Assembly (NCBI GenBank): GCA_024679065.1
Contig: JAGIQG010000011.1
Coordinates: forward strand, 41,540,001 to 41,604,000
Source of the DNA: Sphyrna mokarran
Lineage: Eukaryota
Length of the DNA stretch: 64,000 nt
Direction: 5' to 3'
Every line of letters begins with the position of its first letter. The stretch's first letter is position 1. Both the position numbers and the translations under genes were made by a program. The notes below the pieces were generated by a model, which had not been told where the DNA came from, made no database searches, and saw only the letters and a list, made by a program, of their open reading frames with translations. Positions 9,484 to 38,801 of the stretch are shown here, one piece after another.

Positions 9484-9526
9484 AGGTTAAAGGTGATGAC
9501 CTTGACATTATAGAAGTTCAAAGACA
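9484..9526. promoter_or_regulatory. Nuclear-receptor half-site cluster between HoxD11 and HoxD10
   Basis: AGGTTA-A-AGGTGA-TGACCT-TGACAT...AGTTCA-AAGACA; contains an exact TGACCTTGA (reverse TCAAGGTCA) at 9497-9505. Confidence 0.45.
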
Positions 9527-11117
9527 ACATTATAAGAATTCTCTTTTCAACATATACCCGAGCATGCTCACGAGGAGATGCGACGTTGTCAGTATCACCC
9601 TGGTCTTCATTAGGTTTAACAAATTTGATTGATGTAACTTATGTAAGATGTAGATTTTTTTCAAATGGTAAACTTTGTCAGCTGAAACGTCCTTGTGTTC
9701 GTATTCCTGTTAAAAATCTGCTTACTTTGATTTGTTTCGATTCTTTTGTTTGGTATGTGGTGCAGGAGCCTTCCTTAGTGACTAGAAGGTGTAATAAGTC
9801 GCCATTAGGCTGGTTAGAGCAGTGAACTTTACGATGTTGTCTAGACAGTTCAAGGTTTTGTAAACAGCAATGCTATGTCATGCGGCACGGAAACTAGGCA
9901 ATTCTTTTTCTTTCCTCGAAAAAAAATTAAACGTTTTGAGGACTCTTATTTACTATGTCACAGGGACACGGATTAGTTTCAAGTTATCATATGTTATTTA
10001 TACATGTAAGTAATTCCTTCTGTAAGAATTTCGTTTAATTTTGATTATACGCTGCCATTGCCCCCTTTCTCACCATGAAATGGAAAAAATATGTCAATTA
10101 ATTTCCAGATGTAAATATGTTTCCTCCAATTTTTTTTTCAAATTGCAATTAACTATCATGTTTATCGGCGAACAGCCAGGTCAAATTTCGGCTTTTCGTT
10201 TTTAAACAGAAACACTCGTGAGGACGCATTATACATGAGCCAGGCAGTAATCTGTAATATAAACAAAAAAAAAGGAACTGGAAGTATTCAGTCGATGAAA
10301 CACCATCTGTTATACTTCAGATTTCCAGTATCCGCATTACTTTGTACTTTGTGTAGTAAATAGCTATGTTTTGGGAGATTAACGATATTGGATCTTCCGA
10401 ATGAATTGGTGCCCTTAATCTGGTCTGCTTAGTATACTCAAATTCATTTAAAAAAGTTTATTTATAAGATTTCTTCGAAGACTTGTTTTCATTTGAGACA
10501 GAACACATACTAACACATGCATTTATCATGAAATGTCAACTAGTTTGTAATCTTTAAACAGAATTGTTAACATTGCAACAGGTTTAGACATTTCTAGCTA
10601 CGATATGTTAGAGTTAATGAATGAAATACATTGGAAAAACGTAAAATAATAAATATGCATTTCTTCTTTTCATGGGAATACATACACGTTCAACAAGAAT
10701 GGTTAGTTTGGCTATACAATGACTAAAACACAAATAGAAAATACTATATTATTTGATTGACCTATCGCTGTGAACGAAAGACTGCTCCATTCCAGCCCCC
10801 AATTACCCCGGTTTATTGTTAAAAATGAGCACGCTGTTTTTTTTATGTCGCGAATCAAACCTCTTCCGTTAGAATCGAATAACACAAATACTGAGGTAAG
10901 GATGTTCCCTAATTTACATTTCGGCCATGATTCCCGCACAACCGTGTCACCTTAAATTCGATTCTACGTCGATCGCATTAAGGGCCGTCTGCTTTCCAAA
11001 GAAGAACAACAAAACTATCCCTTCATACTTGCAAGTCACTCCATCTGTAAATAAATATCGACTAAGGCAATGGAGAGTTGGTCGGAGAGAATCCACCAGA
11101 GTTAAGATGTATCATAG

Positions 11118-12508
11118 TCACAGTAAAGGGTTGCCAGTAAAAAAGTGAAGGCGGTCTCTGCTAAGTTTCTTTTCTTTCATTCTTCGATTCTGGAACCAAA
11201 TTTTCACTTGTCGATCGGTGAGGTTTAACATTCTCGATAACTGCAAGCGCTTCTCTTTGTTTATGTAAACATTGAAGAAAAATTCTCGTTCAAGTTCCCG
11301 GATTTGATATTTGGTGTAAGGACATCTTTTCTTTCTGCATCGCAGAGCGGCTGATGGAAACACAATAAAACGTAAGGTTACAAAGTATCAAATAGCAACT
11401 GACGTGTTCTTAATTCCTTCTACATAAACTCGACAGCAAATGTTGTAAATAATGTTCGGCTTGCCCAATATATCCTGATAGGACTATTTACTAACTGATG
11501 ATTTTTTTAAAAAAAAATGAAAAAGCTTAAATTGGGTTTTCTTTTATGAAGCATTATTTTCCTTACACTCGCATTGAAATCAACAATCACAGGGAAAACT
11601 ATCATAATTAAAACTTTGCCTTGTTACCCTAGAGGAAACGCCTTGGCAATCAATAGAAAACAGAAAAAAACCCTCCGGTGAAATTGCAATGACTATTGAA
11701 ATCATTATATAAAGTGAAAATCGACTATTCGTGATTTTACATATTCAAAAAGCCCACCTAAACCGATTTCCCGTCGTAAACAACCTTTACAACTTTAAAA
11801 CAGATCTTATAGGGTATATAAAATCCTTCGTCTGCTTATAAAATTTCACATAAAATCTGTGAGGCAAAATGTGTTGGCCCTGTATTCTAACGCCGGGTTA
11901 CTAATTCACCTACTGGATAGGCTGCTTTTGTCGGCCACACCATTACCGGAGAACTCCACCGTGGTCTTTTCGGTCGCAGTTTCTTTTCCCTGCCGGGAAG
12001 AAACTTTCTCAGGTGCTGAGATACTCTGGCATGCCGACACAGACTTTTCGGGCAACTGTTCATAGTTAGCGGAGTCAGAAATCCCATAAGCCGTCTCAAA
12101 GAACTGATCGAAACCTTGAGGGAGGATTCCATTCCTGCCAACAGCAGTGTAGAAATTGCAAGATGGATTTGAACTTCCACGCTGGCTGTATACGGAATCG
12201 CTTTTAAACAGCATTCCCGCCCTGCTCGGTGGTTGCATGTAGTCTCTATGCATGATTTCTTCTGCCGTGCAATAAGGAGCATAGCTGCTCCTGTAATGCC
12301 ACTTAGCCGGACGCTCTAAAGCGTAATCTCGGAACGCCACTTCACGGACAGGTTGAACCTGGGTTAAATTGGAGGAATAAGGAAATGTCATTTGGCAGGA
12401 GGTGCTCTGCGGTAAAAATGTGGAGAAATCTGGGGCTGAAACATAGTACGTGCAGCTGGGCAGATACATACTGGAGCCGCAACTACCCAGGTCTTCAAAC
12501 TCTGTCAT
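11118..12508 (-). CDS. hoxd11: Homeobox protein Hox-D11, 2 exons: complement(join(11118..11350,11914..12508)), 275 aa (an in-frame upstream ATG at 12562 could add 18 aa)
   Basis: Group-11 motifs [24 protein letters not shown] and [18 protein letters not shown]. Donor TCCA|GTAGGT at 11914/11913 and acceptor TTTCCATCAG|CCGCT at 11351/11350 (phase 1). Homeodomain [57 protein letters not shown], ending FFTGNPLL*. Confidence 0.97.
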
Positions 12509-12624
12509 ATTTTGCTTTCGAAGTTGCGAGGCCGAATTATCAGGATTGATGATGTTAAACATGCTCCATCTATTCTACCCTAAAAGCGTATGAACAGGGC
12601 CGGCGGAGAAAAAAATTGGAAACG

Positions 12625-12680
12625 CAAGTTGACGTGCAATTCATCTTGATTGATTCTAAGGCTAAACGAGTCATGTGATC
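12625..12680 (-). promoter_or_regulatory. HoxD11 proximal promoter elements
   Basis: TGACGTG near 12630, PBX-type TGATTGAT at 12647-12654 and E-box GTCATGTGA at 12670-12678, all 120-170 nt upstream of the ATG. Confidence 0.45.
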
Positions 12681-15600
12681 CAATGTAGAAATTACCATAG
12701 ATCAGTTTTGGTCATTAAGATCCATCCTTTGGAACTCGAAGGTAATACCGTCGAAATTAGCCTATCGCCTTCCAGGCGGTGCTAGGTAGCCGCGCTCCCT
12801 TCCCAGTGCCAATGATTTGCCCTCTGACTAAGTATAAAGCAAACACAGTAACAAATAATTTAATTGACATACCGCACTCTGTCACAGATACCTTTCTATA
12901 TTTGGAAACTCCAAAAACATCGGCGCTGTTTCATTAACTGTTGAGGTCGTGTCCATAATATAAAACTATATTCTACCAAATAGGCAGAATTCTTACTATC
13001 TTAAAATATAAAACTTTATTTTTCTACATGCGCTAATACGAGTAACAAGGGGGAGCTCCAAGTCATTTCGTGGTGGGTGAACCGAATCACAAGATCCTGC
13101 CTAAACTCTACTTCAAGGTCGGATTGACGTGTTAACAGAGTTTTATTATAAATCTCAGAGTAAGGAAATTAGATGGAATATGTCTATTCAAGGACGATAA
13201 CGACATTATTCACTTTTATTTCGAAGCTGGTGGCTTACAACCTTTCGATTCGATTTCTAAGTTCGGATTTGACATATGCCATAGCCAAGAATGTATACAT
13301 GATTAAAGCCATTCCCTACCGCTGAGCCTCATTATGTTACCGCCAAAAAAGATGTACTTCATTAATTGTCTAGATATTATTGTTTACATTACGCAAATTA
13401 ACCATCCAATGATCGCGCGAGTTTAACACTATCTTCGACATAAATCGTAAATATGCAAATTAAACAAGGTTTGGAGTTGGGTTCCTCTAGAACTGCATCG
13501 CTATTTTGACATTAACGTTAAAATATGGTTGCACTGCAATATTTAAATAATGACCATAATATCAGGCTTGCTCGAGGCGTACATTTCTCTTTGCAATTTC
13601 AAAAGTTAATATCCATGATTTGCATAAATTGGAAACGACATGTGGAGACTCTGTTGGGCAACTGGAGTGAGTTCAGAAATCTGAGAATACAAACGAGTGC
13701 ATCGCCGAGTTATTCCGTAATCTCTCCCATCGGCAGAAGCCAATATGTGGAGTCTAATTAAATATCTGCAGGAAAGCGAAATTCTTGTTTGAATAGCTTT
13801 CGAATCTGCAAATATGGATCATCTTCGATCTTTTTAAGCGGAGGCCAATCAAGTATAAGATATATAAGCTGATAACTTCCATGTAACAGCTTGGAGGGTG
13901 TGGGAGGAGGCAGCTCCACGGAGAAAAGAAATCATATTTAATTATGGAAGGAAATCTACTCATGTTGCAATTTGCGCTTATGCACTCATTAAATATTGCA
14001 TGTCATTATCTCGTTTTCCATTTATCCCTCAAGACCGAGCAGGAGGTAGCGCTCTGATCAATATTTGTTTACTTTGGTCGGATTGCAATAGACAAATAAT
14101 ATTGTCCGTATATTTCAATTAGCCAAAGATTATGTGTAATTAATTCGAGCAACCTGAGGATAGTCCCATTTCTCCGAAATGAAACATAATAAAATGTAAA
14201 TGCCATTGATTCCATAAGTAATAATTGTTCGGTTGTAAAGTAAGTTTCCTAAAAATGGATTTAAATTAAAGGTTTGAATCACACCAGTGTGTTAAGTTTC
14301 GATTTGTTCATTCCATTCTCGTCAAACTTGCACAGGCACTTCTAAAATGTAACATCCGACTGTTGTTCGTATAAAGTGTGTGACCTGGTATCGTTTTAAT
14401 TAATAGGAACTAAAACGCAGTATTGTCTTTGTGTATTTATTGTAAAATAATAAAGATAATTAACCTCAAATTAAATCAAAATTTGAAATTTCCTAACGCA
14501 GCACGGCTGACTGATCTAGTATGTCGACCGTGATCACCGATACAGCAGAATGAGCCACATTGAAATGTAAATAGCATGTTGAGCATTGCCCCGGCACAAT
14601 CGTTTGAAATAAGGAACCTCTCACTTATAAATATTGATTCATTTTTAATTTTCTTCCTTTGGAATGTAATGCATCCTTTATGTAGTTAATAAAAGCATCA
14701 TCGTTGCGTATTCTATTAATAGATTACGGAACTCGCTTAAGCATGTCCTGGATATAATATGGCTTTCCTTTCTGCGTATAATGGTTTTAAGGCTCAAACG
14801 TACTGGCCATGGGCTCGATGTCATTTCCAAGCAATTTCCAAGCATCAACCGTTATGAAGATACGCACTAATTCAGTCACATAGCATTAGTCCTTGTGTTA
14901 GAAGACCCAGTTCAATACTATGGCAATGGCTGTGAATGGAAAGGGAATTAAAAGTGCCCTTTGTTCTCATCTCGTGTTCAGATGACCAATTCGGCCCGTA
15001 TTGAATGTTAAATGCGGACAAATACCTAACAACTTGTTTAACATCGACGGGGGGAGGGGGAGGGAAGCAAAGGCGGTTCTGGTATACCAAGTAAAGAGTT
15101 TTATAGGATATAAGTTAGGATCATTATTCTCTTACACGCATGGAGCAAAAAGGCGACGCACAGAGAAAGTTTGTCTGGCGTATTTCTTTCTTACTCAATT
15201 CTTCAAATCGACGATTTGTTCTTTCACGTTGCCGTCCTCGGCAAAATATTAGCGTCTTCGTCGCTTTTTTTTTGAATAGAGCGCGGCGTTAAGTATTTCG
15301 AATGTGGAAAAAAAAAGCCCTCATTAGTCAAGCGAAGTCCACGATCAGTAGGTATGTTAGACTTGTGCAATGCAAAAAGAGACACTAACTTGACCTTAAC
15401 TTTGTTATGGCGCCCCCAGTATCTGGAGAACATGTACAGACACTGTCTGGCAGCTCGACCCATAAAAGTGAGATGAAAAAGAGATTCCGAGCCATTTCGA
15501 CCTAATGTCGGACAAATTTCCAAAGCTCTGGATTATACTGCGGCAAATATGATAACCTTGATACATTTTGGTGCTGGAGTAATTTACTGTACACAATTAT

Positions 15601-18600: not shown

Positions 18601-19194
18601 ATACAAATGAAAAATTCCTTCGTCCTTCATTTTATTAGAACTCAATTTACATAGGTAGAGTGCATGCATAATATTTATATATTTAAGATTTAAATTCGAA
18701 TGTTCCATTCTAATTACCTGTTGTACTTACATTCTCAAAATGCAGAATATCTGCTTGTTACTCTTCTGGACAGTCATGTGGCAATTTTTTTTTAAAAAAA
18801 TGAGGAAACAAAATCATTACAAATGTCTTTGAAACTAATACATGATGATGAGAAGACGCCGGCACGTTATTCACGGACAGCAAAGTACAGGCCACAACAA
18901 GTCAAATTTGTGCCTAGCGATCAGTGTCCTGCTATAGCAAATGTTCACGAGGTATCCGTAGTTTGCATCTCAGTCCCTGTATGTTGCTGATGTTTAACTA
19001 AGCCAACACGCCATGGACTAGTGGCAGTGGCGATGTAATGTTAGATTGCTGTTTTATATGACAGCACATCAAAGGAGCACCTATCCATTAAAACAATGGA
19101 TATTCTTGATCTACATGCTTTCTGCAAGCAAGCATAATTACCATAAAAAGTTCAATTCACGACCTTGAAACTCACATTTGAACTTTACTTTGGC

Positions 19195-20791
19195 CTAAAA
19201 AAGTGAGAGTGTTTGTTCGCGCATTACAAGCCTTTTCTTTTTCATGCGTCGGTTTTGAAACCAGATTTTGACTTGTTGGTCGCTCAGATTCAGTCTATCG
19301 GACAACTCTTTCCTCTTCTGTCGGTTGATAAACTCGTTGGCGAGAAATTCATTCTCAAGTTCAGCTATTTGCTGCTTGGTGTACGGCTTGCGCTTCCTTC
19401 TTGACCTCACTTGGGTTGGACACCAGGGCAGACCTGCTGATAGGGATAGAGAAGAAAAAAAGGCTGAAGCAATCGAAACATTTCACCACCCACCACCCTC
19501 CCTCCCCTCCACACACACCCCTTCACCCCCCAATTCTAGAATAATTGACATTTTCAGCACTGTTTGTTCTTCCAGACAGTAGCATTTTTAACGTTGTTGG
19601 ATTTATATTGTTGCGGTTTTTTGAAATGATGTTGAAACTTCAATCAAAAGATATAGCATTCTCTATTTGTGGCACTTGGTCTTGATGATTTAGAAAAAAA
19701 ACATCACTAGTAAATTATTATTTTGTCTATCAAGCTGGTCAAATGACACAAATGCATTATTTCAATATTCAAGTATCTTAATATTCTATAGTTACTGCAG
19801 CAGAAACTCGCCAATTCTAACAAAGGAATCATCCTGAAAAATTGGCTTCATAATAAAATGGCGACAAATTCAGTAAAGATTTCTTCACCATTTAAATAAA
19901 TGTTAGTTAGAACCCAAACTGCAATGTTCAACCTTGTAATTTTAATTCAATTTCAAATATTTTGACCTATCATTCATGTGCCGCTGCCAAGCCTTCTGTT
20001 TCATTGTGTTTATTATCACGTCCTAATCATTTTTTGTTTGTAATTGCGAGAATCACTTCCCCGCTTTTTCTGAATACCGCAAGGTTTTCAGGTTCGTTGT
20101 TTAATATTCAGTCCATGAAATTCAGGTAAGGGTGACAGGTAGTACTTTTGGGAAGTCGGGATACTGCAGTTTTCAGAGGAGGATCGTTTGAATATTGCAC
20201 TGATACTATACCGTCGGAGGATCTGTTGCACACTGGCGTTACTGGTGACTGTAATGACACACTGAGGCTCACACTTTGCTTGATGCCATCATTTACAGTG
20301 GGAGAGTTGGAATTCAATTCAAAGCCTTGGTTATGTAATGACGAGCCATGCAGAGATGTTTCCACATTTGGGTATTCGTACTTGGCAGGATTGATGTTGA
20401 CTGAAGAGGGGATGCTGCTATCACTGGGATAAGACTGATTGTGTCTGCATCTCTCCTCCAGTTTCCGGCTGCTGTCTTGGAAGTAGTATTTGTTAGGCTC
20501 TTCGCCGGCCGCTGTCTTGTCTGATCCATGCTTATTGATGCTGATGGAGACTGAGTTGTTGAGGTAGGATTGAGAGTAGCCGCTAAAGGCGCGGCTCTGC
20601 GGCGGCGATGCGCATGGACTCGAAGTCCACGGGAGCGAGCACACCTCCCTGCGGGTGTAGGAGAGTGCTGGCGACAGAGTTGCCAGTTGAGTCCCATTCG
20701 GACGCAGGTTGGCGAAATAGAATGGCTCCGGACTGGTAAAATTTAACAGGGAGCCGACATAGCCTGAATTTAGCAGATTGTGATCGCACAT
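19195..20791 (-). CDS. hoxd12: Homeobox protein Hox-D12, 2 exons: complement(join(19195..19433,20212..20791)), 272 aa
   Basis: N-terminus [33 protein letters not shown] (group 12). Donor GACG|GTATAG at 20212/20211 and acceptor TATCAGCAG|GTCTG at 19434/19433 give [69 protein letters not shown]. Confidence 0.96.
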
Positions 20792-22529: not shown

Positions 22530-23598
22530 AGAATTGACTTTTTTCTGCTAATGTATGTATTTATCTAATTACAATTTGACACGAATTGACCCTTTCTGTT
22601 AAAATCATGTGCTTTAAAATCAAAGCAACACCGCCACCACATCCTCACCGGAAAGGAAAACCACCGGTCGATCTTTGTCCCTTTTATGATCTCACAATGC
22701 CCTAAAAATGCCGAACCAGTTTCTTTAGTAAAACTTCAAAATCCAAGCGTAATTGCGAACAAGGGGCGCTGAACAGAAGGCGCGTCTACACCTAACATTT
22801 ATTGCAAAAAAAAACCCCTCGGAATAACTCCAGAAAAATGAAACTCCTCAGTTCAAGGTCAATGTCGAATGGGGATCAAATCGCCATGTTTTTTCAAAGA
22901 TATGTTGTTAAACTTCGTTTTAGTGCAAAATGTGCTTTCAAATGAAAAATCACCTCAGGTAGGAACTGAGCACCCTACCAAGAAAAAAATGAGGTTTTCA
23001 TTAAAATTATTGTAACCAAGGAAGCGAATGGGGAGAAGAATCCACACTTTCCAGCTATCAGGACAAACACTGCTTTATTGTTCGTGATGTTTTCTCAAAG
23101 CTCTCATTCCAAAACCATCGTCATTTCAATACAGTTTGTGAGTATCTGTGGTAACTGAGATAAGAACATGCTGAAGAAAACACAATCGTACAATTTCTGT
23201 GTTATGTCTTTCACAGAAACTAGGAGCAAGGCTAATTCACCTACATTCTTTTGTTTACAATATAACATCAACGCCGGGCTGGTGCTTTGTCATCCAGGAT
23301 GTGAACGCCAAACTGGCTAACATGTAAAAAATACAACTTGTTGCACAAGCTCGGGAACGTACACTAAATTTAATGGATGCAAAATGTTAAACCCCAGATA
23401 ATTAACAAAATTGAACACCCGGTATTTGCAAACTTTACGTAGCTGGAGTTGAAATACTTACTTTCAGCGCGCTTTTCTTGAAAAACACGCAATGCTGCTA
23501 TCTAAGTCGCTAATGCAGCCTTTCAATTAAGATCTTGAAAGAAACAAATGTTGGCCTAATTAGTACTTCTGACACTGGTTTGCAGCGTAAAGTACGAA

Positions 23599-23789
23599 CG
23601 ACCATCTTGTGGCCCGCGTTTCAGTGGCACTAACGATTATGTTGCATCGTGTTTTACGGCGGATTGTCCAGTAGATGGCGAACTGGCTCTGCGATCAGGG
23701 TAGTCCTTATTATTCATGATGCTAAATAAAGTCAAGGTCAAAGACCATAACGATAGTCAAGGTCAATGGTAAATAGAAATTTGACGTCA
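23599..23789. promoter_or_regulatory. Dense cis-regulatory module between HoxD12 and HoxD13 (2 CTCF-like motifs, 2 TCAAGGTCA, 1 CRE)
   Basis: Minus GGGCCACAAGATGGTCG (23599-23615); plus TGTCCAGTAGATGGCGA (23665-23681); TCAAGGTCA at 23732-23740 and 23757-23765; TGACGTCA at 23782-23789. Confidence 0.6.
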
Positions 23790-26336
23790 GATCGCTGAAC
23801 ATCCTTCAAAAAATGCATCTTGAAATCACGGAACTCCGCCAAATTCAAGGAGAGAAAATCAGGCAATCTGCACGCACATGTTTAATATGACAGAATGCGA
23901 AGTTTTATTCAACTTAATAAACCACGAGGCGTTTCAATTTCCTTCTGAGGTTGAGGAAGAGAACCTATCCCGATGCACAGGAATATGGTTAGAAAGTGTT
24001 AGCAGATGGTAAATATAGATGCCAGGGTCAGGAGAATTATCACCTACTAAGGTCACGCTCATATAAATGCCGCCAATCGCACTTAGCTTAATTCTAAACT
24101 TCATCACTTAATATTTCTATTTTAAACAGGGGGGCTGATGGCTCTCCTTACTTGCTTATCCCGACATCAATTTTCCTTCAAAAAGCTACATTCACTCTCT
24201 TACGAATATATTATTCACATCATCATGTTTTACTTTCATTTACATAGCGAGGCCGACAGGAATGATATAACCGGTGTTAAAACATCTGCGCCGATATTAC
24301 AAGACTGCTCACTAAATGATTCATTTTAAATTTAAGATTTAAAATAAGCATTAGTTCAATTAGTTACACGTTGGATTGCGCTTAAGAATCAAATAATATG
24401 TTTGAAATCACATTTTGCCGTAACGCTCTTCAAAGTTGTTAGCTTGGATAACTAACTGCCACACGGTTTATTTACCTAATAATCCTTCATGGGAAACCTT
24501 ACAAATTATTGGAACTGTTATGTGAAATGAGTACAACCCCCCTCTTGAATTAACCGCTACATAGGCAATGAACTAATGGCGTGCGATCGATGTAGTATTT
24601 TCTTTAGCCACCAGACTCTAGTGGCTAAGACCATATTTAAAATGGAACTCGCCACACAACTCATTTTCTGCTTTCAATTTGGTCCTAATCGTAAGTTGTT
24701 TCAAAGCGCAACAAGCAGGAAACAGCACATGTTTCAAATAGTTTAATTTTATATTTACAAGATGCGCAGCAAGTGAATACTGGGGAAAAAAGTCAACATA
24801 AGGTATCATTCTTATTATAAAGTGGCGGATTTCAACACACTCATGTTCAGCTCTTATGGTTTGTTAATACAGTAATCCCTATTTATGCTTAAGTCGTTTA
24901 GAAGTTTGTGTCCCCCAAGCCCCGCCAAAATGCCGCTGTACAATGTAACTTAGTGACTTATGAAGATGTGTAAATGCGAGAATGCGAATATTGCTGAATT
25001 TAATAGAAAATATGGCGATGTGGCAAAACCAAAAAAGTTGGATTCATTTACAGGAAAGATAAAACTTGAAGACAATCAAAGTGTGACTTGTTTTAATATT
25101 CTACACGGCATAATCAAAGAAAACCATGCGAGTTCATATTTAACTCATCTTGGGTAAAGAAAATGATGGACAGAATGAACAAATGCTTGCGTTAAAAATG
25201 TACATAAAACATAGAAATAACGCCGAACGTATCCGCTAATTTACTCGTATAGTTATCATGATTACAATAATGAAGTAATTTAACTATAGAGCGCAACAAG
25301 TTACTAATTAGAAAACAGCTGTAAAAGGCACCGCATTCAAAACGACCAAGGGGCTTTCAAATATATTAGCGTTTCTTTTGAAAATAACAGAGTTAAAGGG
25401 ACAAAAGATTCAAAATTCAGAAACATAGATTCTCATACTTTAACGCATAACTTTTAAGGACATTTTAGATTCGACCAGCATTTCACTTGAGACTGAATTT
25501 AAGTTTAATGGTTACATTTACTGAGGACAACATAGAACACTCTGCAGTGAAAAAAGGAAGGTCCTTTCAGTATCTAGGCTAAATAATTTATTATGAAAAT
25601 GATTGTAAATTCGCTGCCGATTAATATGATAGAACATCTTATGAGATTGTACCGCAGTTGATCCGTAACTATCCCACTTATATTTAATTTCTAACTGGCA
25701 CTGATTTAAAATGGTATTTTTGCAATATATTTTCAATCATTTACAAGAGAATGGATTTTGTTGCCAGTATATATGATTAGCATTTGAACCCATTCGCAAT
25801 GTAGCCATTGTACCTCTTGCAAAGTATGGCTGAAAACTTATATGTTAAATAAGGATGGCTTTGCATTAAGAAAGTTATAAATACGTTCCATTTAATGTCA
25901 ACGTTTGTGTTTAAACGTGTTATCAGTTGTAGTCGCCATTTTATCTGTATATTGCAAACCCTCCAGTAGCTCAACTGAACCCTCGAAACATTTACTTAAA
26001 ACTGATCGAAGCATTACTTTGCAGCAGTATTTGCAATGTCACTCGTGAAAATAATCCAGCACGGTAACATAATACAAGGGTGTGAACGTGGAGCTGTTCA
26101 CCTTTTCAAGATTGCCTTATTTCTTTGAAGGTGGTAAATGAAGTCAGATCAAGTATCTTTTTTTAAGCAAAGATTCGCACAAAACATTTTGTGGAAATTG
26201 TCAGTTTAAGATTTTTTTTGTAAATCCGAAGATGTGTCTTCAACGCCTCCCACATTCATTTGGTTCCCTTTGCTAACAGGAAAACCATCACATGTAATTT
26301 ACAATGGGCCAATACAGGCTACTGATATCTGCCGTA

Positions 26337-27611
26337 TCAAGGTATATTTTCTTTGACTTTGGAAACCACTTTCTTTTCTTTGACTCTCCTGTTCTGAAAC
26401 CAGATGGTAACTTGTCTCTCGGTCAGGTTGGTGGCGGTTGATATCCTGCGTCGTTTTTCCTTGGTTATGAATTTGTTTGTGGCGTACTCTCGCTCCAGTT
26501 CTTTGAGCTGGGTTTTCGTATAAGGGACCCTTTTTTTCCTCCCTCGCCTGTAAATGTTTATATCAGTCTGATTGTGCATCATGTCTCCTGAGAGGGAAAA
26601 TGCAAGTTAGAAGAACATTTAACTTCAAAGCAGTAGCACTTCAAAGAATGTTATATAAAAAAAATTCTTTCCCACATTTTTGAGTTTTGAAACGTACTTT
26701 AAGTAACTCAGAGATATTTATTCATATGGCCAATGCCATATTCCAGTGTATTAATTCACGCGTATGGTTATTCTGTGTTCCAGGTGTTACTAGTCCGAAA
26801 TACATTAATTATTAAAAGCTAGCGAATTCCTGATAATATTAAAAACCAAACCAATTGGAATTATGTTATTTCCTTTGAATTTAAAATAATTGTAACTTTT
26901 CAGTGAAAATTATTTTATAATACCTGAGAGAGGAGATTTCCAAAAATGTGGAGTCTGTGTCTGATCTTTAGGACAATACACTTGACCGTTCCAGCCATTA
27001 GCAAATGACCAGGGCTGATAGCCCTCCATGGAAATTAAGGCTTCATGCCTTGGCTCTCCGTGGCCGCTTATTGTGGGGACTACTGGAACGTCCAAATAAC
27101 CAGAGACCCGTTGGTATGGATTGGGGTAACTCTGATAAAATGCAAATTCTTTTGCCCTGGATGATACCTCGTCAGTGGGGACAGGGGTATTAGTCAAACC
27201 AGAAACGTCCATGTATTTGTCCACTGGATAACCGGCTAGAGATGCATGCGCACCAGATTTCAGTCCAGTTTGCTGAATGCCAACATTACGACAACTGTAA
27301 TAGCTGCTTCCAAAATGATAGCCGTAACTGATCGCTGGGTTTGGAGGGCTTGTCGGAGCTGGGCATGGGCTGCATTGCTTAGCAGATTCAGAAATGACAG
27401 AGTGCGTTCGATCTCCGACTGAGTAAGCGGGACCCGAAGATAACGAGTTGTGATGAGCTCCAAATGCAGAGGGAGAGAGAAAATTCCTGCATTGATTTGA
27501 AGGGACGTTCCCTCCCAGTCCTTCCATGTCCGAGTTAGCTGTGTTGTTTCTGTTGTGTAGGTACCTGATTGTATCAGTCCTCCAAGGGGCTGAAAGAAAA
27601 GAAGCTGTCAT
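26337..27611 (-). CDS. hoxd13: Homeobox protein Hox-D13, 2 exons: complement(join(26337..26587,26924..27611)), 312 aa (alternative start at 27527, MEGLGG)
   Basis: Group-13 motifs [52 protein letters not shown] and NGWNGQVYC. Donor TCAG|GTATTA at 26924/26923 and acceptor CCCTCTCAG|GAGAC at 26588/26587. Homeodomain [58 protein letters not shown]. Confidence 0.97.
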
Positions 27612-27745: not shown

Positions 27746-30700
27746 GCAACTGGAGCTGGCTTCAGCAGTTATTGCAATCTCTTCCCGATGTTAAAACCAT
27801 TTAATTTTTCCTGAATTAATTCACTGTAATTGACGACTTGATCTGTTGTGCATTGGAAAGAGAAAACGTGAAGGTGCTTTCTAAGGCTCTATTCTTACGG
27901 TGTTCGCTGAGATTTATTATTGATACCTTGCACGAAGTACACTTTGCAGGATCTGCAAATTATACGTATAGCATACATGAGATATTCTTTCAGTCGATTT
28001 TCTATTCGGCATGCTTTCTATTTCAAACAAAGTTTGGGATATCTTTTGCGAAATAACAAAGTCAAACTGGCACTGGATCATATCTTTTTATCAATGCACG
28101 GTGGTGACAATTATTTGTATTTTCGGATATGATAACGAAGCACTCGGCAATGACCTGCTTAGCATCAACATGTGTCGTTCAAGATAGTCTATAAATTTTC
28201 TAGGTATAAATCCACGCTGCATGCATGATTCTGCATACAAATGTGAAATGGACTGCAAAAATCATCCTTTTTTTCTAACCAGCTCTAAGACGGTCCCATA
28301 GCATTCATTTCCGCTCAAATCCTACATATTCTAAATCTTCAAAAACTCGAGGGGAATTAATCGGGTCGATATTTATTTTTCGCTTTGATATTCGATCTGT
28401 TTTTAAAAAGGCGATTTTATTCATTACTTCCCTTGAATTCGGCTTCCTTAAGTCGGAGGTATGGAAATTGCGGATGTCTGATACTTAATTTTGATGTACT
28501 TGCGATATCCTTTATTTTGTATCATCCCATTGCCCTTTTGCACCGCATCATTTTCACATTTTGGGATTAGTTTGCATTTTACATCTAATTCGACAAATGA
28601 CTCCAAATGGTCAAGTATCGAAACATATTTGTGGCAAAAAAATAAAGATATGATATCGCGGGAGGCCGCGGTCTCTCAATTAAGGAAGCGCCGCATTTTT
28701 TTTCTGCAGGCCTTGTTTTGGTTGTCTGCGATCTGTAAATGTGGACTTTGTGGCAAAGTTCCCGAGTATGATTGAATTCTCCCTATTGATATCAAAAACC
28801 GTAAGACATGAACATAAATATTCAGCAATATAACCGTGCTACTGGAACTAGGGCTTGTTTTGATTCCATCTTAACAATAAGATGAGATGTAGAAAAATAT
28901 TTACATTTTCCACCAAAAGACATTTCCAACAGATATATTCCCAAAGTTGCGAAATCACGTTTTTGACACAAATCGAATAATACTTTGCAGCTTACATTAG
29001 GATAAACGGCTCATTAAGTGCGGTACAAATATTGCCGTGTGTGCGATTAAATAAAAACGAAGAAATCCCATTCTCGGAAGATATTTGATGAAATTATGTA
29101 TTGCAGATATTATGTATTAGATATTATAACAAAAGTCTCAGGGACATTTTACAAATGTTGAACGGAAAATAGGAAGAATTTGGCTAACTGTGACTTGGTT
29201 TTCAATAGGTAATATTAGGGCAAACTGAGCGTTCATCTTACTCGTCCACTGCACATAATTCCACACCTTCCTCAAGCCTGCGGAGCGGGTCAATTCCATG
29301 ACGAAGTGAACATTTCAAATAAAATATCAGAATGCTTCGACAAAGATAATTGAAAAACTCCAAACAAGTAGTCAACGGGATTCTGAGTGCCAGCAAAATA
29401 AGAATTACGGCATTTTCAAATGAAGCTTTTCTAAATTTTGCCTTAATTCTTCCCCTCAGCCCCCGAATTCATAGAGAGGACATGTGCCGTTATTTCACAG
29501 AGAAAACAGATTCTGTCTACAAGCGTCGGTGAGGTGGAGAAATTAATGAGCCAATTTCTTTGCACTAAATTATATTCATCCATTCCTGCGAATCCATTGC
29601 TTTATTTTTCTTGAAAAGATATTCTGTACTGACTTGATGTGCTTCGTTTATATTTAGTGAAGTCGTTCCCACAGCCTTTAAACAAAAAGACGAAGAAAAA
29701 GGATTTGAAATCAGCAATGTTGATCCTTCCTATTTGAGTATCTAATTTGAATAGGTGCAGCGTCTTTATTTAAGAGCATGTGGGCCGTATCTTTCGTCAG
29801 AAAACGAAAACAAATAGCAAGTGAGCAGTTCCCATTTTCAGTGAGAGAAAGAAGAAACGTGCCAGCGACTTATTTCGGATGGCTACTTTTATTTAGAATT
29901 CCGGCCAAAGCGCAGGATCGGATTTAAAAGTATGTCGCTGTCTCAAGTTGGTCGCATCAATGGCATTGTAGACAAAGGGGTTCTTGCCGGAAGTAGATGA
30001 AGTCCAAGGTCAAGGTGGAGAGAGAGGGAGGGGGCGAGGGAGAGGAGAAGAAAGATGGTAAACAGCGGTTTAAAGAACTCAACAGCTCCGTTGGATTTAT
30101 GTGAAGATTTCAAAAGATTGAAGTTAGCTGTGAATTATAACATAGCTTTGCAAAATTGTATAGTCTTGCTAAACCATGTCAGGTTAGTAATACCTGTGGT
30201 GCCATATAAAGTTAAACAGTAATTTACGTATAGGAATGTGTGTTAACTTTCTGATTCAGAACCATTTGGTAAATAAGACACTAGAAAATGGAACAAGAGT
30301 CAACAGGAGGCTAATGGTGAATGCCCGATACCAATTTTCGACCCAAGCTAGGGATGGGCAATAGATGTGACCTTGCCGTCTTCGTTTGTATCCCAGAACA
30401 AAACAAAAGGAGCGAGTCAGTTGTTGTAAATATTAACAATCCCGCATGTTGTTGACAAAGGGTGACAGTAAATGTTGCTGTTTGAATGTTGCTTATTCTC
30501 AATGTTATTTACTATAATGTGCTGATATCATTCATTTCACAGAATTTCAACTTCAAGACATTTCCATTTTTAAAGCATTTATTGGAACGTTATGTTGCTT
30601 CCGAGCGATCCTCTATCACCCTCGCTCTCGCCCCCCATTCCTGTCGAAGTTCAACATCAACTTTCCACTGTCGCTTTGTGAATTCTGTGGACAGCCGTGA

Positions 30701-32881: not shown

Positions 32882-32915
32882 CTGCAGTTATCATTTCCCA
32901 CCAATGATGGCGCTA
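32882..32915 (+). promoter_or_regulatory. Candidate CTCF site with upstream TGCAG module
   Basis: CTGCAGTTAT-CATTT-CCCACCAATGATGGCGCTA. The right half GATGGCGCTA fits the CTCF core and TGCAG sits at about the usual upstream-motif spacing; the left half is degenerate. Confidence 0.4.
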
Positions 32916-33089
32916 CCTGTCTACCCAGCGGGAGACTCTGATTCCAAGTTGGTAAGTTTGCATTGGCAGTTTCTTGGCAGTTATAAAGGTAGACATAAGG
33001 ATTGCAATGGGAACGTTGAAAGGGAACAAACATAGTCGTAAGATTTTGAATCTACAGCCATTAACTGTTACCCCCAGTGTCTGTCTATA

Positions 33090-33410
33090 AGGAGATTTAG
33101 ACAGCAATTATTGTGTGTTTTCCCCATGGCAGAATTGTCTTAAGACCAAAGGGCACAGGTTTAACCTGAGGAGTTGGTGCTTTAGAGGGATCTGAAGGGA
33201 AAACAATCATCCAGAGGGCGATGGAAATACGGAACACGCTGCCTGGGAGAGTGGTGGAGAAAGTACTCTCGCAACATTTAAGTCGCATCTGGAGGAGCAC
33301 TTAAATTGCAAGTGCTGGTAAAGGGGATTAGTATGGATTGGTATTTGATGGTCAGTATGAAAATGGTCGCCCGAAGAGTCTGTTTCTCTGCTGGAAGACC
33401 CTATGGTTAT
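33090..33410 (+). mobile_element. CR1-type (HER-like) LINE 3'-end fragment inside the Hox cluster
   Basis: Shows CR1 ORF2 C-terminal/3'UTR hallmarks: ACCAAAGGGCACAGGTTTAA (TRGH-like), CAGAGGGCGATGGAAATACGGAACACGCTGCC (QRV..WN.LP-like), CATTTAAG..CATCTGGA (FK..LD) and terminal CCGAAGAGTCTGTTTCTCTGCTG. Resembles the CR1 ends at 59.6-60.0 kb and, reversed, at 55.2-55.5 kb. Confidence 0.8.
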
Positions 33411-33589
33411 CATGCTGATTATATTCCATAGCTGCTTGAAGAATGTAAGGCTTAAAGACTTCTGTGTCACTGTGAGTCCTACAAAGGATTATAATGAAAT
33501 AGACATTAAACAAGAAAGCAATGACTCTGTTTGAACAAAGAAAGTCATTCTCTTGCCGTTGTGGCATTGTTCATCCAATGCTGCAGTGT

Positions 33590-33730
33590 CTTATGTTCGA
33601 TGTTCCATATCACCGAATGCAAATTAGCTAGTCATTCATTCGTCTGTCTGTTGTAGGACATTGCATTTCCCAAATTAGCTGCTGTTTCCCTAGATAAAAA
33701 TAATTCTGTTTCAAATCATTTTTCATTTTC
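33590..33730 (+). mobile_element. Highly decayed DeuSINE-like remnant
   Basis: TTAGCTAGTCATTCATTCGTCTGTCTGTTGTAGGACATTGC...AAATTAGCTGCTGTTTCCCT aligns loosely by eye with the clearer copy at 53375-53445. Confidence 0.35.
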
Positions 33731-35629
33731 CATGGAGAATAATTTTGAAAATGACAAAATTCAGGGTTTTCAAAAGAAATGTGACACTTAACAGTCTTTT
33801 TAAATGTTCAGTCAGGACCTTGAAAACTGAAATATCTGAAAAATAACTAATTCGACTGACTAATTGTAAATCACTAATTACAACAATTCTTTTCAAATTA
33901 TTATGAGGCTTGTTATACCTTTAAAACATTTCTTTAGACATTTACAATTGATATCAGAGTGTGGCTTTTGAAATTCAAATCAGACTTTTAGTTAAATTAC
34001 GAATTAAGAAATTATGACAGACAATTGCTCAAAATATATTTCTTCCTTGCAACTTCTCTAATCATTGGATAATCGCTATTCAGGCACGTGACGGCAGCAT
34101 GATTTTATTCCCTCTATTGGGAGAGTCTAGTGGACTGCTTGAGGTTTCTTTTGTCACTTGCGACTTTTGCTTTCAGTTATTTGTATTGAAGATATACCAG
34201 AGACGGGTCTTGGGTTTATGTTTTCTGGTTGAAAAACGCACATCTGGTATACGCTCTTTGCAATTAAACAATATGACCACCACAGCAGAAAGTGGGCCAA
34301 TGGGCTTAGAGTCAATACAATCCCTCCAGTGTAGAAAGAGGCCATTTGGAAGTATTTTCCTTTCCTCCTGACGTTTTCAGTCCAAGCCCAGCTCTGAGGC
34401 AACTATAAATATATTGTCATTTACACAAGCAAATAAATGGGCGGATAAGTACGCTGGGACGATCGGGAACAAATCAGAAGTAGGCAGATATTACACTCAG
34501 AATATATCCTGAAATAACTAATTCATTGCACTTGGGCAACATGGATCGGTTTGGCTGACTGATGTTCCAGTTATCTCTACAATTAAACAAAACACTCTGT
34601 TCCATTATAACTCACTGTTATATTAAACAAAAGTATTTATTCTTTTGAGCTCAATAATCCATAGCAAAGTACTCCGCTTCCGCAACCACCGCAATGAAAC
34701 ATCATTTCAATTGTTCTATTTCTTTCCGAAAACCGATCTGGGGTTATCGGCAAATCAGCAGGAAAAATGTATAACTTTTAAGCTGTTTAAATTTTAATTT
34801 TTATAATTTTTAGTCTGTATAACTTTTAAACTGTGAACCTTCCAACTGCACAGCTTTTAAAACTGCATCTAAAAGGAGAATAGCAAATCCATTATGAGCT
34901 ATTGAGGAAATAGTCTAAACAGATTGAAATCCATTCTATTTCATAAGCTAAATGTCGCCATGAATGTTAATATTTTTTACATCAATACATTGCTGTCTTT
35001 AACTAACCAGTGTTGGTCCATTCCCATTGAATCCCAGCTATGTGCTTTGATTGAAGCCTGTAAATTAATACATTGTTGAAACTGAAAATAAGAAAAATGT
35101 TTTAAAGCAATTTTGAATTCAATATTACTGGAGGAGGGCCTTCATGAAATTGAGAAATTTATTCGAACATAACACGCAATTACTTTGTACGATTATATGC
35201 ATTCTGAATCATTCCAAATTTGAACAATATTGTTTACTATCCAAGAAACAATCTCCCTGGCAATCAAGATCATTGTTATCATCATTTAAGCATTAAAGGT
35301 AACTTTTAGAAAAGCATTCATATTATATAATGAATGGTAGTCATTATTTTAGAACGCCAAGCTGCGAATTTTTTTTAAGAATCGAATTTGGCTCAAAGTG
35401 TAAATATTTCTTGTTCGTCGTCTTTAGTACTGTTTCACACAGAAAATTCACACCAATATAACAAAACTTTTCGCTCTTGTGCATCTCTAAACGAAAAACA
35501 TTGAAAGAAAAAACGCCTAATAATGGATATGAATGGATATTTGAAGAGAGGTGACTTTGTCGTTACACATCCGAATATACGTTTCTCTAACACATAAAGC
35601 CAGTCTTTCTTTGACAAAAGGTTCGGGTT

Positions 35630-37334
35630 TCACAGTCCGGGATAACCTGACTTTACCGACTGTTGTACACGGAGAAGCTTTTTCTCTTTCTGCCTCTGAT
35701 TCTGAAACCATATTTTGACCTGAAAAACAAACAGATCATTTGAAAATGGCAGGTGGTTAACAATAACCCCTTTAAAATTGCAGTGAAGAAGCTGTGCCCA
35801 CCTGTTGATCAGGAAGGGAGACGGTGTTGCGAGAACAGGTGCGTCCTGTAGAAATTGGAAGGGGATTCTCTTACCTGCCTTTCTGTTAATCCTAACTTGA
35901 ACGATATGTTTAATCGAACTTCAGGGGTGAGGAATCGATTATTTTCAAAAGCCATTTCCAGTTCAGCGATTTGCTGTTTGCTGTAAGGAATTCGTTTTTT
36001 CCTTTGTCTATGTATCGGGTTTTGTGATGTGGACCATTGGGATGCATATCCCAAAGCTGGGGAAACAACAATCCATCAACGTGTTGAATTAGCATGAACA
36101 CAATAGTTGACATTCACAGCAGCGTATATGTCTTTACCTACTTATACCGTTTTCCTGTCTACATGAACTCCATGTTAATAAAGTATACAACAGTATCATT
36201 TACCCTCGCTTATTTTAATTGATGTTCGTTAATTTAGCGAAGTTTATTTGTTAGTCAAATAAAGTAACATTGTCCAGTGACGAGAATTAATATCACATAT
36301 AATTACTTATATACTTTTGGTTCTCATCCCTCTTCTTGTTTATTTGAATGAATAATTCACACTTTACCAAAGTAAATCGTTTTCAATTGATCCTTTTGCT
36401 GCATTTACATATTTTATATATCTAAAAAGCACATTTTTGCTTTTGATCTCTGAAACATTTCATTGAGAAATAAAGACTGAGCAATTGAATTAAGTCGGAC
36501 TAACATAAACTAACCACTCCCTTTGATATATTTCTCGTGTTGAAGACATATCCTGAGATTTATAACCGCCCTAAGGGAAAACTGACTATTTTAGATCTCC
36601 TAAAGTTTAATGGGCATATTTTTTCCAAAATGGTATTTGAAGATGAAATCCCCAGTTCACAGTAAGTGCAACAGTCGAAAGTAAAATACAGAGCACCCAG
36701 TGTTACTAAAAGACAGGGAAGACAATATTTTAAAAAATATATCGCAATTTTTAACTTATCCAACATGGAAAGACGGGTATACAATGTACGAGAATGTGCT
36801 GTCAGACTGACCTAAATGCCTTGGGACACCGGCTATTGCCGGGTTGAGCGCTCCTCCTGTAAACGGTGCCTCGCAGTACTGAGAATGGCTGAAGGCAGCC
36901 ATGCCCTGATTGTTGGCATCTGGCTGGTCAGGTGCAGTCCGGGGATATTCTAAAGGCCAATGTTGGTAAATTGGGCAGTTTGTAGGGTATTCACTTCTGG
37001 TGCACAGGTTGTGCCGGTAGCTAGTAAACGAAGGTATATGATTGTCATTTCGAAACTGGTTTGTTGGGAATTGTTCTGCCGCAGGTGACATAGCAACTAT
37101 CTCCCGATCTGCGCTTCCGAACGATCCATAAGTCGAAATATCTTCGGAGTACAAACTTTGGCACTTTCCACTTGAAGTGGTTTTCAAAGGCGGTGGGACT
37201 ATAGCCGAAGAATTGCCACAATTAGTGGGGAGTACTGGTGCCATTTCCGTAGGCCGCACTTCATCTTGCAGTATTCCTGTTTTATCGCTAGATGTCTCTA
37301 ACGTCAGTTTGTATTGCAGGGAAGTCGCATCCAT
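35630..37334 (-). CDS. hoxd14: Homeobox protein Hox-D14, 3 exons: complement(join(35630..35719,35875..36056,36812..37334)), 264 aa
   Basis: Lies between HoxD13 and Evx2 in Hox orientation. Intron 1: donor TTAG|GTCAGT (36812/36811), acceptor TTTCCCCAG|CTTTG (36057/36056). Intron 2: donor CAG|GTAAGA (35875/35874), acceptor TTTTTCAG|GTCAAA (35720/35719). Homeodomain [44 protein letters not shown]^VKIWFQNQRQKEKKLL has the Hox14 WFQNQR signature and an intron after residue 44. No stops or frameshifts. Confidence 0.95.
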
Positions 37335-38801
37335 CTTATAACTTCACTAAATGACTATGTTCAATCCAGCCACCTGCAAATATAATCCCTCTGCTATTTT
37401 TCTGTCCTTACTTGCCAGCGTAAATTTCTCTTTGTTCCAAACGTTGAGAATAATATGCGTGGCAGGCACTGAGCAAATACTTTAACTACCACCTCCCAGA
37501 AATGGAACTAAACGATCCATTAAGTGCACAAACTACACCCTGGTCCAAACTACCTGATCTTTTTATTGCTGTAACTCTACTGCAGTTGGTAAATAAAACG
37601 CAATGTGGACTCTTTGTAAATTAAACTTTGTGAGCAAACGTCAAGGACAGGGTTGCATTACAGAGTGACACACTTGGACTGTAGTTATTGTACTATTGAC
37701 TCAAGGTCAATGTTGAGTTTCTGCGATAATTTTGTGTCACCTTACTCTTTCGGTTTTTCTTTGCCTGACGTTCCACCGGTGATCTCAGGTGACACTATTT
37801 GATTGCAGGGCACTTAGATTTATAAACGTGCCGTTTTTTTAAAAAAAAGCTCAAGCAACGGAATTGAACAATCATTTAGTAGGAGTGAGCTGTGATCTGG
37901 AATAAACCTCTTTCGTGACATTGCAACTTGCGTCAGGCAAAAAGCATTTAAGCACATTTTATTGCCTGCCATAACCTTTAACGCTCTAGAATTACACCTC
38001 AAGATACCTGCATTAGACGATCGAACAAATATTTAGTCTGTTGCGGTGAACCTTCTTTGAGCTGGCTAAAGTGGACTACCACTGCATCCAGAAATCTGGT
38101 GCACCATACTTATTAATTTTAACCAGCTTTGCTAACTGATTGAAACTTTCCCTTCACATAGTGTTAAAGGCAATTAAAACAGAAATGACGGAGATCATGG
38201 ATTTTGATATCGTGCAACCTATTTTTCAAGAGAACGTCCTTGCCATTATCTTTTCTTTATATTGTGCTTAATATTCTTGCTCAGGTCTATTAATCAGTAT
38301 CATATCAATGTGAAAGAGAATTGATCTAATCCTGCACTCTACCGTCAGTTAACCATCAACCAGGCATACAAAGATTTTGCGTTTAGGACCGAGAATGAAA
38401 TTTCAGCAGACTATAGGTTATGAGATAAATCTGATGAAAATGTTACATTCAGTGGCTATTTTTGTCTCATCACTTGCCCTTTATAAAAATGAAAATTTCA
38501 AGATATGCATGTACACCTGTTTTGATAATGGCACAAGAAGTCAGTTAGCCAGCTAACTCCTCACCCATAAAATAAGAAAACAATGTTCCATAGGTTCAGT
38601 TTTATTTGGAAAATAAATACAAAAAGCAGACTTTTCAAATTATGTCGACGTAAGATCACTGACCAATAAAGAAAGGTAACTCATATGAATAGCAGATATT
38701 TTCATTTGGTTTCTAAAATTAATGTCCAAAAGCCGCTGGCTCTCAGAGAAATTAACTTTTCGGAACCTCTCTGAAAGTAATGAGTCTGTTAAAATCAAAG
38801 C

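What the first reader, a model, noticed from the sequence alone, without database searches (positions are those of the whole stretch)
9484..37709. Recurrent TCAAGGTCA / DR0 nuclear-receptor motif across the posterior HoxD genes (candidate NR6A1 control array)
Seen by eye: exact TCAAGGTCA at 9497-9505 (reverse), 22853-22861, 23732-23740, 23757-23765 and 37701-37709. Near copies lie at 4215-4232, 13113-13121, 19160-19168 (reverse), 30004-30018 and 37641-37649. Several are DR0 repeats (AGTTCAAGGTCA, AAGTCAAGGTCA, ATGTCAAGGTCA, AGTCCA-AGGTCA-AGGTGG). A rough composition estimate gives about 0.5 exact hits per 64 kb, and I saw none in the lnpk intron. Established: TCAAGGTCA/DR0 is bound by NR6A1 (GCNF), and also by NR5A and ERR; mouse Nr6a1 restrains posterior Hox expression at the trunk-to-tail transition. 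Inference: an ancient, cluster-wide array for direct repression of the Hox10-14 genes, including HoxD14.
Basis: partly seen in the sequence, partly recalled or inferred. Interest (0 to 1): 0.75.

Follow-up and report, generated by a model that had tools for sequence, protein, structure and literature searches.

The report
Nuclear-receptor sites across shark posterior HoxD
A hormone-receptor-type DNA motif occurs more often than shuffled sequence predicts among a cartilaginous fish's rear-body Hox genes; several copies likely fall in regions already known to be conserved across jawed vertebrates, where they would give the repressor NR6A1 a direct way to delay tail-gene activation, but binding is untested.

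Summary
The window is a cartilaginous-fish posterior HoxD cluster (D10-D14, Evx2, lnpk). All five exact TCAAGGTCA sites and the listed near copies are present (5 seen, 0.65 expected, 0 of 100 shuffles). Caveats: fp17 also holds a strong CTCF-like motif; two near copies, perhaps also 22853, resemble a repeat tail; the lnpk intron has a perfect DR0; base-level conservation outside close relatives, posterior specificity and NR6A1 binding were not testable. Region IX is already a known nuclear-receptor silencer (recalled), and NR6A1 ChIP sites in Hox clusters were mentioned in 2022. Verdict: real, partly known elements; a testable lead on an open question, not a demonstrated NR6A1 array.

The parts
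9484..9508 (.). Composite nuclear-receptor element: DR1 (AGGTTA a AGGTGA, +), IR0, and DR0 ATGTCA AGGTCA on - strand (exact TCAAGGTCA 9497-9505); inside projected region VIII/IX (fp26, about 9424-9928)
9839..9858 (+). The window's only GTCTAGAC palindrome (Smad-binding element, recalled) directly followed by a DR0-like AGTTCA AGGTTT; in projected fp26
15385..15402 (-).
22850..22867 (+). Perfect-consensus DR0 AGTTCA AGGTCA plus a third weak half-site; near the expected place of region XI (no shark coordinate); unchanged in runs X20 and X12; also resembles a repeat tail
23668..23681 (+). Best CTCF-like motif of the window (1 mismatch to a recalled 14-letter consensus), 48 bp from the DR0 pair
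23729..23765 (+). Tandem pair AAGTCA AGGTCA / TAGTCA AGGTCA (25 bp apart) at the edge of projected fp17, in a block with 1 of 32 substitutions in run X20
37638..37709 (+). Near copy (37641-37649) and exact copy (37701-37709), 307-375 bp upstream of the HoxD14 start codon; in no footprint with shark coordinates; conservation untested
30001..30018 (+). AGTCCA AGGTCA AGGTGG, 2.5 kb upstream of the HoxD13 start; conservation untested
13110..13121 (+). ACTTCA AGGTCG, about 600 bp upstream of the HoxD11 start; in no projected footprint
19160..19171 (-). GTTTCA AGGTCG, 27 bp after the HoxD12 stop codon
2854..2865 (-). GCTTCA AGGCCA (NR5A-type, recalled) in projected HoxD10 promoter footprint fp32
4209..4232 (+). 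Near copy; aligns at 23 of 31 columns with a repeat tail from the lnpk intron, so possibly repeat-derived
30348..30406 (+). Repeat-tail remnant that contains the CAAGGTCA at 30368-30375(-); this copy is likely repeat-derived
543..2725 (-). HoxD10 (exon 1 2725-1987, 739 bp; homeobox exon about 543-814)
11118..12508 (-). HoxD11 (exons 12508-11910, 11350-11118)
19195..20791 (-). HoxD12 (exons 20791-20212, 19433-19195)
26337..27527 (-). HoxD13 (exons 27527-26924, 26587-26337)
35630..37334 (-). HoxD14, intact 264-aa frame in three exons (37334-36812, 36056-35875, 35719-35630), intron inside the homeobox
41567..44206 (+). Evx2 (exons 41567-41990, 43046-43293, 43583-44206)
60901..60912 (-). Perfect-consensus DR0 in the lnpk intron (counter-example to absence outside the Hox genes)

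Best explanation
The posterior HoxD cluster of this cartilaginous fish carries an excess of AGGTCA direct repeats with zero spacing, and the copies that map to conserved regions VIII/IX, X and fp17 are likely nuclear-receptor response elements through which NR6A1 would hold HoxD11-D13 off in trunk-stage axial progenitors until Gdf11 and miR-196 clear it. Shown here: the sites, their excess over shuffles, their spacing preference, and constraint of the fp17 block in one relative. The other copies (HoxD14 upstream, 13113, 19160, 30004) may belong to the same system but have no conservation evidence; 4215 and 30368 are probably repeat debris.
For: 5 exact vs 0.65. Strict DR0 (<=2 mismatches), clumps merged, 1-kb block shuffles: 9 vs 2.2, 0 of 120; with the five exact loci masked still 6 vs 2.3, 2 of 120. 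AGGTCA is the best non-microsatellite among 4096 hexamer tandem repeats (12 vs 2.1), and 2 of 60 shuffles have any hexamer as enriched. YCAAGGYCR 9 vs 1.6 in 1-38000, 0 in the rest (P=0.01 by length). Exon lengths equal horn shark in 8 of 10 exons compared, allowing footprint projection; footprints cover 4.7% of non-coding DNA yet hold 2-3 of 5 exact and 4-6 of 19 one-mismatch sites (P 0.02 to 0.0002). Run X20: 1 of 32 substitutions in projected fp17 vs 6.2 expected (P=0.009), none in the three DR0 12-mers. The 9484-9508 element overlaps DR1 and DR0 like the GCNF-bound Oct4 element. Nr6a1 loss moves Hoxd11 6-7 somites forward, makes lumbar vertebrae sacral and raises Hoxd13; putative NR6A1 ChIP sites exist in all four mouse clusters.
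Against: The 9-mer alone fails a look-elsewhere test (8 and 27 of 60) and an unexplained 9-mer, GCTGTTACA, is more enriched in the whole window (8 copies). With degenerate half-sites and merged clumps DR0 is 36 vs 26.7, 9 of 120, and 32 vs 26.5, 22 of 120 after masking. DR1 also reaches 6 vs 2.2 (2 of 120). Hox part vs rest is not significant for DR0 clusters (P=0.34). The first three bases of the upstream half-site fit consensus only 9 of 15 times (P=0.075; 13 of 21 with two near copies, P=0.024), so monomer NR5A/ERR sites fit as well. Invariance of the motifs in X20 is expected by chance (P=0.35), and 9 differing places in the other runs were not shown. fp17 holds a near-perfect CTCF-like motif that could explain its conservation. 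22844-22881 attracted repeat contigs in 3 of 4 runs. No binding data were reachable.
Confidence: 0.42

Rival explanations
1. The sites are real nuclear-receptor elements but are read by other receptors: COUP-TF or RAR/RXR at region IX, and monomeric NR5A2 or ERR at the extended half-sites; NR6A1 acts on Hox genes mostly indirectly.
For: The extended half-site YCAAGGYCR (recalled NR5A-type consensus) gives the cleanest contrast, 9 vs 0; upstream half-sites are only weakly consensus; DR0-like motifs recruit GCNF, COUP-TFs, ESRRB, NR5A2 and RAR/RXR; region IX bound RAR and COUP-TF in vitro (recalled); Chang 2022 and the 2024 review leave indirect action open.
Against: The region IX mutant phenotype (forward shift of the sacrum and of Hoxd11/d10, recalled) matches Nr6a1 loss; classical DR2 and DR5 spacings are not enriched; no F9-cell RAR/RXR peak at the six predicted mouse coordinate prefixes in the held part of one table (weak).
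Confidence: 0.28
2. Only region IX is a true receptor element; the other copies are chance, tandem-duplication or repeat-tail products that sit near CTCF sites, which are what is conserved.
For: Look-elsewhere result; 30368 lies in a repeat-tail remnant and 4215 aligns to the same tail; 22844-22881 matches repeat contigs at 81-86% over 37 bp; (AAGGTC)n runs are common in public sequence; fp17 has the best CTCF-like motif and is only 34-50 bp long in 5 of 10 species; a perfect DR0 lies in the lnpk intron.
Against: Excess persists after masking the five exact loci (6 vs 2.3); 9497, 23732, 23757 and 37701 show no similarity to the window's three repeat-tail copies; the constrained block in X20 spans both the CTCF-like motif and the DR0 pair; 22853 vs the window's tail copy scores no better than background (P about 0.2).
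Confidence: 0.3

Closest known systems
Mouse Hoxd11 region VIII/IX (Gerard 1993, 1996; footprint fp26 of Mannaert 2010)
   Same: Same position after the Hoxd11 stop (projected 9424-9928); dense cluster of AGGTCA-type half-sites; a Smad palindrome in the proximal part (Gdf11/Smad enhancer of Gaunt 2013; title seen, location recalled).
   Different: The 1996 work named RARs and COUP-TFs as in-vitro binders (recalled), not NR6A1; no sequence alignment with mouse could be made here.
GCNF/NR6A1 DR0 response elements (Oct4 proximal promoter, Nanog, protamines, Sox10, Zeb2)
   Same: AGGTCA direct repeat with zero spacing; at Oct4 a DR1 overlaps the DR0, as at 9484-9508.
   Different: Known examples are single promoter elements with binding shown; here the sites are spread through a gene cluster, mostly intergenic, with no binding shown.
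Hoxd regions X and XI, footprint fp17, and HoxD CTCF sites CBS5-9
   Same: Positions match by projection; CTCF-like motifs with the mouse-like orientation switch (inferred).
   Different: None of the papers read describes nuclear-receptor sites in these regions; fp17 carries no name or reference in the table.
Retinoic acid response elements of anterior Hox genes (DR2/DR5)
   Same: Same half-site family inside a Hox cluster.
   Different: DR2 and DR5 are not enriched here; the proposed action is repression of posterior genes.

Membership tests
NR6A1 (GCNF) DR0 response element | AGGTCA direct repeat with zero spacing, or the extended half-site | tested here: met
   22850-22861 fits RGKTCA x2 fully; 9497 and 23729 with one mismatch; 23754 and 37698 with two. 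The review prints the extended half-site as TCAGGTCA; TCAAGGTCA is recalled.
NR6A1 (GCNF) DR0 response element | Full upstream half-site (distinguishes dimeric DR0 from monomer NR5A/ERR sites) | tested here: inconclusive
   9 of 15 bases, P=0.075; 13 of 21 with two near copies, P=0.024.
NR6A1 (GCNF) DR0 response element | NR6A1 binds the site in vitro or in vivo | not testable with these tools
   The NR6A1 ChIP paper is not held.
NR6A1 (GCNF) DR0 response element | Site-dependent repression of the linked gene | not testable with these tools
   Only the trans phenotype in mouse is known.
Hoxd region VIII/IX element | Lies about 1.2-1.7 kb after the Hoxd11 stop, in the pan-gnathostome footprint fp26 | tested here: met
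   Nearest-anchor projection 9424-9928 and interpolation 9459-9952 contain the site; the distant HoxD10 anchor (9603-10107) does not.
Hoxd region VIII/IX element | Sequence homology to the mouse element at the receptor half-sites | not testable with these tools
   No bony-vertebrate sequence was reachable.
   0 of 32 X20 substitutions in 36 motif bases, P=0.35; block-level constraint at fp17 P=0.009; only 3 of the sites were covered.
   Anterior cluster not in window; flank contrast P=0.076 (exact), 0.01 (YCAAGGYCR), 0.34 (DR0 clusters).
NR5A/ERR monomer site | YCAAGGYCR extended half-site (consensus recalled) | tested here: met
   9 matches vs 1.6 expected, 0 of 150 shuffles.
Classical RARE (DR2/DR5) | Half-sites spaced by 2 or 5 bases | tested here: not met
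   Strict DR2 1 vs 2.2, DR5 2 vs 2.4.
Repeat-derived motif | Flanks align with an interspersed repeat | tested here: inconclusive
   Met for 30368, likely for 4215, open for 22853, not met for 9497, 23732, 23757, 37701 against three window copies.

The most novel reading that the evidence does not exclude
NR6A1 is the in-vivo receptor behind the region IX silencer and binds a shark-to-mammal conserved set of DR0 sites placed beside the posterior CTCF anchors and the Gdf11/Smad element of HoxD, forming a direct brake on the Hox timer that predates the split of cartilaginous and bony fishes and once included Hox14.
Probability: 0.2. Interest if true: 0.8.

Novelty: new member of a known kind. 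Interest (0 to 1): 0.5.

Why it matters
Whether NR6A1 represses posterior Hox genes directly is stated as unresolved in the 2024 review and was a reviewer's main demand on the 2022 paper, deferred by the authors. NR6A1 variants change trunk vertebra number in pigs and sheep. This analysis names specific 12-40 bp sites in already defined conserved regions (IX, X, fp17), so the question becomes one of a few alignments, one CUT&RUN track and a few point mutations. It also offers a candidate for the receptor acting at region IX.

Tried and rejected
Own genome not held, so no genome-wide background, anterior HoxD or other clusters. Read laying covered only 22730-23830 with 4 of 24 runs; the table was cut at 40 rows, 9 hidden (by subtraction 5 in X6, 3 in X10, 1 in X12), so only X20 is complete; X12 does not cover the pair. 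A third downstream half-site looked frequent but is not significant (14 vs 10, P=0.08). CTCF adjacency as a general rule: rejected as unproven, since 45 places match the recalled consensus at <=3 mismatches and only 23668 is a close match. Repeat-tail test (16 sites x 3 tails): sites were scored on both strands and background on one, so P values are too small by up to twofold; the hits for 30004 and 57284 lie beside, not on, the motif. RAR/RXR F9 peak table: first query format found nothing, second found no chr2 row for six coordinate prefixes, in a file cut when stored. Rfam: 0 matches. Earlier findings of the scan: nothing relevant. Ten paper searches listed no paper mapping NR6A1 sites to region IX, X, XI or fp17; several searches were noisy, only the listed top hits were seen, and subscription papers are not held.
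Full report
What the window is. ORFs, translations and Pfam give five Abd-B-class homeobox genes on the minus strand and an Evx gene on the plus strand. Exon borders were verified at GT/AG and compared with the horn shark column of Mannaert 2010, file 1: 8 of 10 exons compared have identical length (HoxD11 exon 1 is 599 vs 604, Evx2 exon 3 is 624 vs 603) and intergenic offsets differ by 1-179 bp. HoxD14 has an intact 264-aa frame with an intron in the homeobox. The window is therefore the posterior HoxD cluster of a cartilaginous fish close to, but not identical with, the horn shark record. The name lnpk for the gene from about 52700 rests on synteny and a recalled N-terminus. No whole genome is held.

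The observation. Because the word was picked by eye I tested it against all 9-mers: it ranks first in 1-38000 under Markov orders 2 and 3, eighth under order 1, and 11th-69th in the whole window, but 8 of 60 and 27 of 60 simulated sequences contain some 9-mer as enriched. The exact word alone is thus suggestive only. Geometry is more telling. With RGKTCA half-sites (recalled) only DR0 among DR0-DR8 exceeded all shuffles (45 vs 28.6, 0 of 150), though this falls to 36 vs 26.7 (9 of 120) when overlapping hits are merged and shuffles are local. With strict AGGTCA half-sites DR0 gives 9 clusters vs 2.2 (0 of 120), the best of 27 geometries; DR1 gives 6 vs 2.2 (2 of 120); with the five exact loci masked DR0 is still 6 vs 2.3 (2 of 120); the rest of the window gives 4 vs 1.9 (14 of 120). 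Among all 4096 hexamers repeated head to tail, AGGTCA is fifth after four purine- or G-run microsatellite words, and 2 of 60 shuffles have any hexamer as enriched. The extended half-site YCAAGGYCR occurs 9 times in 1-38000 (1.6 expected) and never beyond. Against this, the contrast with the rest of the window is weak for the exact word (P=0.076) and absent for DR0 clusters (P=0.34), and the lnpk intron has a perfect DR0 at 60901-60912.

Where the sites lie. Projecting horn shark footprints through the exon anchors puts 9497 in fp26 (regions VIII/IX), an unreported triple half-site at 15385-15402 in fp20 (region X), 23732 inside and 23757 inside or just outside fp17 (an unnamed footprint listed for 10 of 11 species), and 2854 in fp32. 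Seven projected footprints cover 4.7% of non-coding DNA in 1-38000 and hold 2-3 of 5 exact sites and 4-6 of 19 one-mismatch sites (P=0.02-0.001 and 0.011-0.0002 depending on projection; the tandem pair is not independent). 22853 is about where region XI should be, but the table has no shark coordinate for it. 13113, 19160, 30004, 37641 and 37701 fall in no footprint with shark coordinates. The element at 9484-9508 packs four half-sites as DR1, IR0 and DR0; the Oct4 element bound by GCNF, COUP-TF, RAR/RXR, ESRRB and NR5A2 is likewise an overlapping DR1 and DR0. The window's only GTCTAGAC palindrome (9839-9846) abuts a DR0-like 12-mer in the same footprint.

Conservation test. Runs from related organisms share 0.27-0.38 of sampled words. 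Four runs were laid on 22730-23830. X20 spans it in one contig with 32 substitutions, all listed: none in the three DR0 12-mers, one in the spacer (23746), and 1 in projected fp17 against 6.2 expected (P=0.009); invariance of 36 motif bases alone has P=0.35. X12 covers 22850-22861 unchanged at depth 2. None of the 40 listed rows falls in a motif, but 9 rows were hidden. So the fp17 block is constrained, but the motifs are not resolved from the CTCF-like motif at 23668-23681, the closest match in the window; mouse HoxD has four posterior CTCF sites of one orientation. No bony-vertebrate sequence was reachable.

Repeat origin. In X10, X20 and X12 unrelated repeat contigs aligned to 22844-22881 with 5-7 differences in 37 bases and loose ends that resemble a repeat tail also present in the window at about 55960-56110 (-). 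That tail aligns with 30348-30406, which contains the 30368 copy, and at 23 of 31 columns with the 4215 copy. 22853 aligns to the window copy without gaps at 22 of 34 but no better than background. 9497, 23732, 23757 and 37701 show no such similarity. Shark repeats may thus seed this motif, and shuffles understate the true background.

Mechanism. In mouse, Nr6a1 loss moves Hoxd11 forward by 6-7 somites, turns lumbar into sacral vertebrae and activates Hoxd13 and other posterior genes early. NR6A1 binds DR0 and represses through NCoR/SMRT and DNMT3 at Oct4. From memory, mutation of the receptor sites in region IX also shifts Hoxd11/d10 and the sacrum forward, with RAR and COUP-TF as in-vitro binders; I saw only the titles. 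The simplest joined reading is that NR6A1 sits on region IX and the other conserved DR0s while the trunk forms, and that Gdf11 both removes it and activates region VIII through Smad. Binding, reader identity and repression are inferred (0.42). Rivals: other receptors read the sites (0.28); only region IX is real and the rest is chance, repeat debris or CTCF neighbourhood (0.30).

What is known. Chang 2022 states that reanalysed fibroblast-type stem-cell ChIP data show putative NR6A1 sites in all four Hox clusters, without positions in the passages seen; a reviewer asked for ChIP and the authors deferred it; the 2024 review calls direct action unclear. Ten searches listed nothing that maps NR6A1 to regions IX, X, XI or fp17; the library lacks most subscription papers, including the 1993-1998 Duboule-lab papers, which may already note these motifs, and the ChIP paper.

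Papers and what was seen. PMC9755267: passages, section 8, passages of supplements; its preprint 10.1101/2022.03.21.485239: passages (supplements closed); PMC10909835, PMC10335938, PMC5588924, PMC11659552: passages; PMC3091776: passages, section 3 parts 2-3 of 5, supplementary file 1 whole; PMC12957460: passages and a supplement search; PMC4446430: passages, file list, supplement searches (peak table cut when stored, file 1 unreadable). Gerard 1993 and 1996, Beckers 1996 and 1998, Herault 1998, Gaunt 2013: titles in reference lists only, content recalled. Gurtan 2013: nothing; its peak list would bear directly on the claim.

Verdict. Observation confirmed; interpretation partly supported. The sites are most likely a mix of real nuclear-receptor elements in known conserved regions and weaker copies of uncertain status. 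New member of a known kind; interest 0.5, because it turns a stated open question into tests at named sites, while the ancient, cluster-wide, NR6A1-specific and HoxD14 parts remain unshown.

Noticed in passing
window 8437, 13882(-), 16540, 31483, 32187(-), 47796, 48231, 60670: The 9-mer GCTGTTACA occurs 8 times (0.5-0.9 expected), more enriched than TCAAGGTCA over the whole window; flanks share no obvious repeat; unexplained.
   Followed up: partly
window 9839-9858: Unique GTCTAGAC palindrome directly abutting a DR0-like 12-mer in projected region VIII; a possible Smad-versus-receptor switch.
   Followed up: partly
window 15411-15417(-), 22756-22769(+), 23668-23681(+), 38804-38817(+): CTCF-like motifs in projected regions X, XI-like, fp17 and XII-2, with an orientation switch like that of mouse HoxD; only 23668 is a close match.
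   Followed up: partly
window 23502-23830: Constrained block wider than the published fp17: 1 of 32 substitutions in run X20 over 329 bp (bounds chosen after seeing the data).
   Followed up: partly
window 35630-37334: Intact three-exon HoxD14 with an intron in the homeobox.
   Followed up: yes
window 22853, 23757, 37701, 40564(-), 44631: Five copies share the longer word TCAAGG(T/A)CAATG (0.02 expected in 1-38000), two of them flanking Evx2; could be a third half-site, a SOX-like site or repeat ancestry.
   Followed up: partly
window 30348-30406, 53995-54075, 55960-56110; 55270-55647 and 59510-59886: Remnants of a repeat tail, and two diverged inverted copies of another repeat in the lnpk intron.
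   Followed up: partly
window 58940-58999 and 60303-60375: Imperfect palindromes in the lnpk intron.
   Followed up: no
window 47592-47755 and 48314-48493: Two assembly gaps (N runs) between Evx2 and lnpk.
   Followed up: no
L001-L119: (AAGGTC)n runs and recurring repeat families rich in TCAAGGTCA are common in public metagenome contigs, several with shared flanks (for example L008, L034, L036, L044).
   Followed up: no
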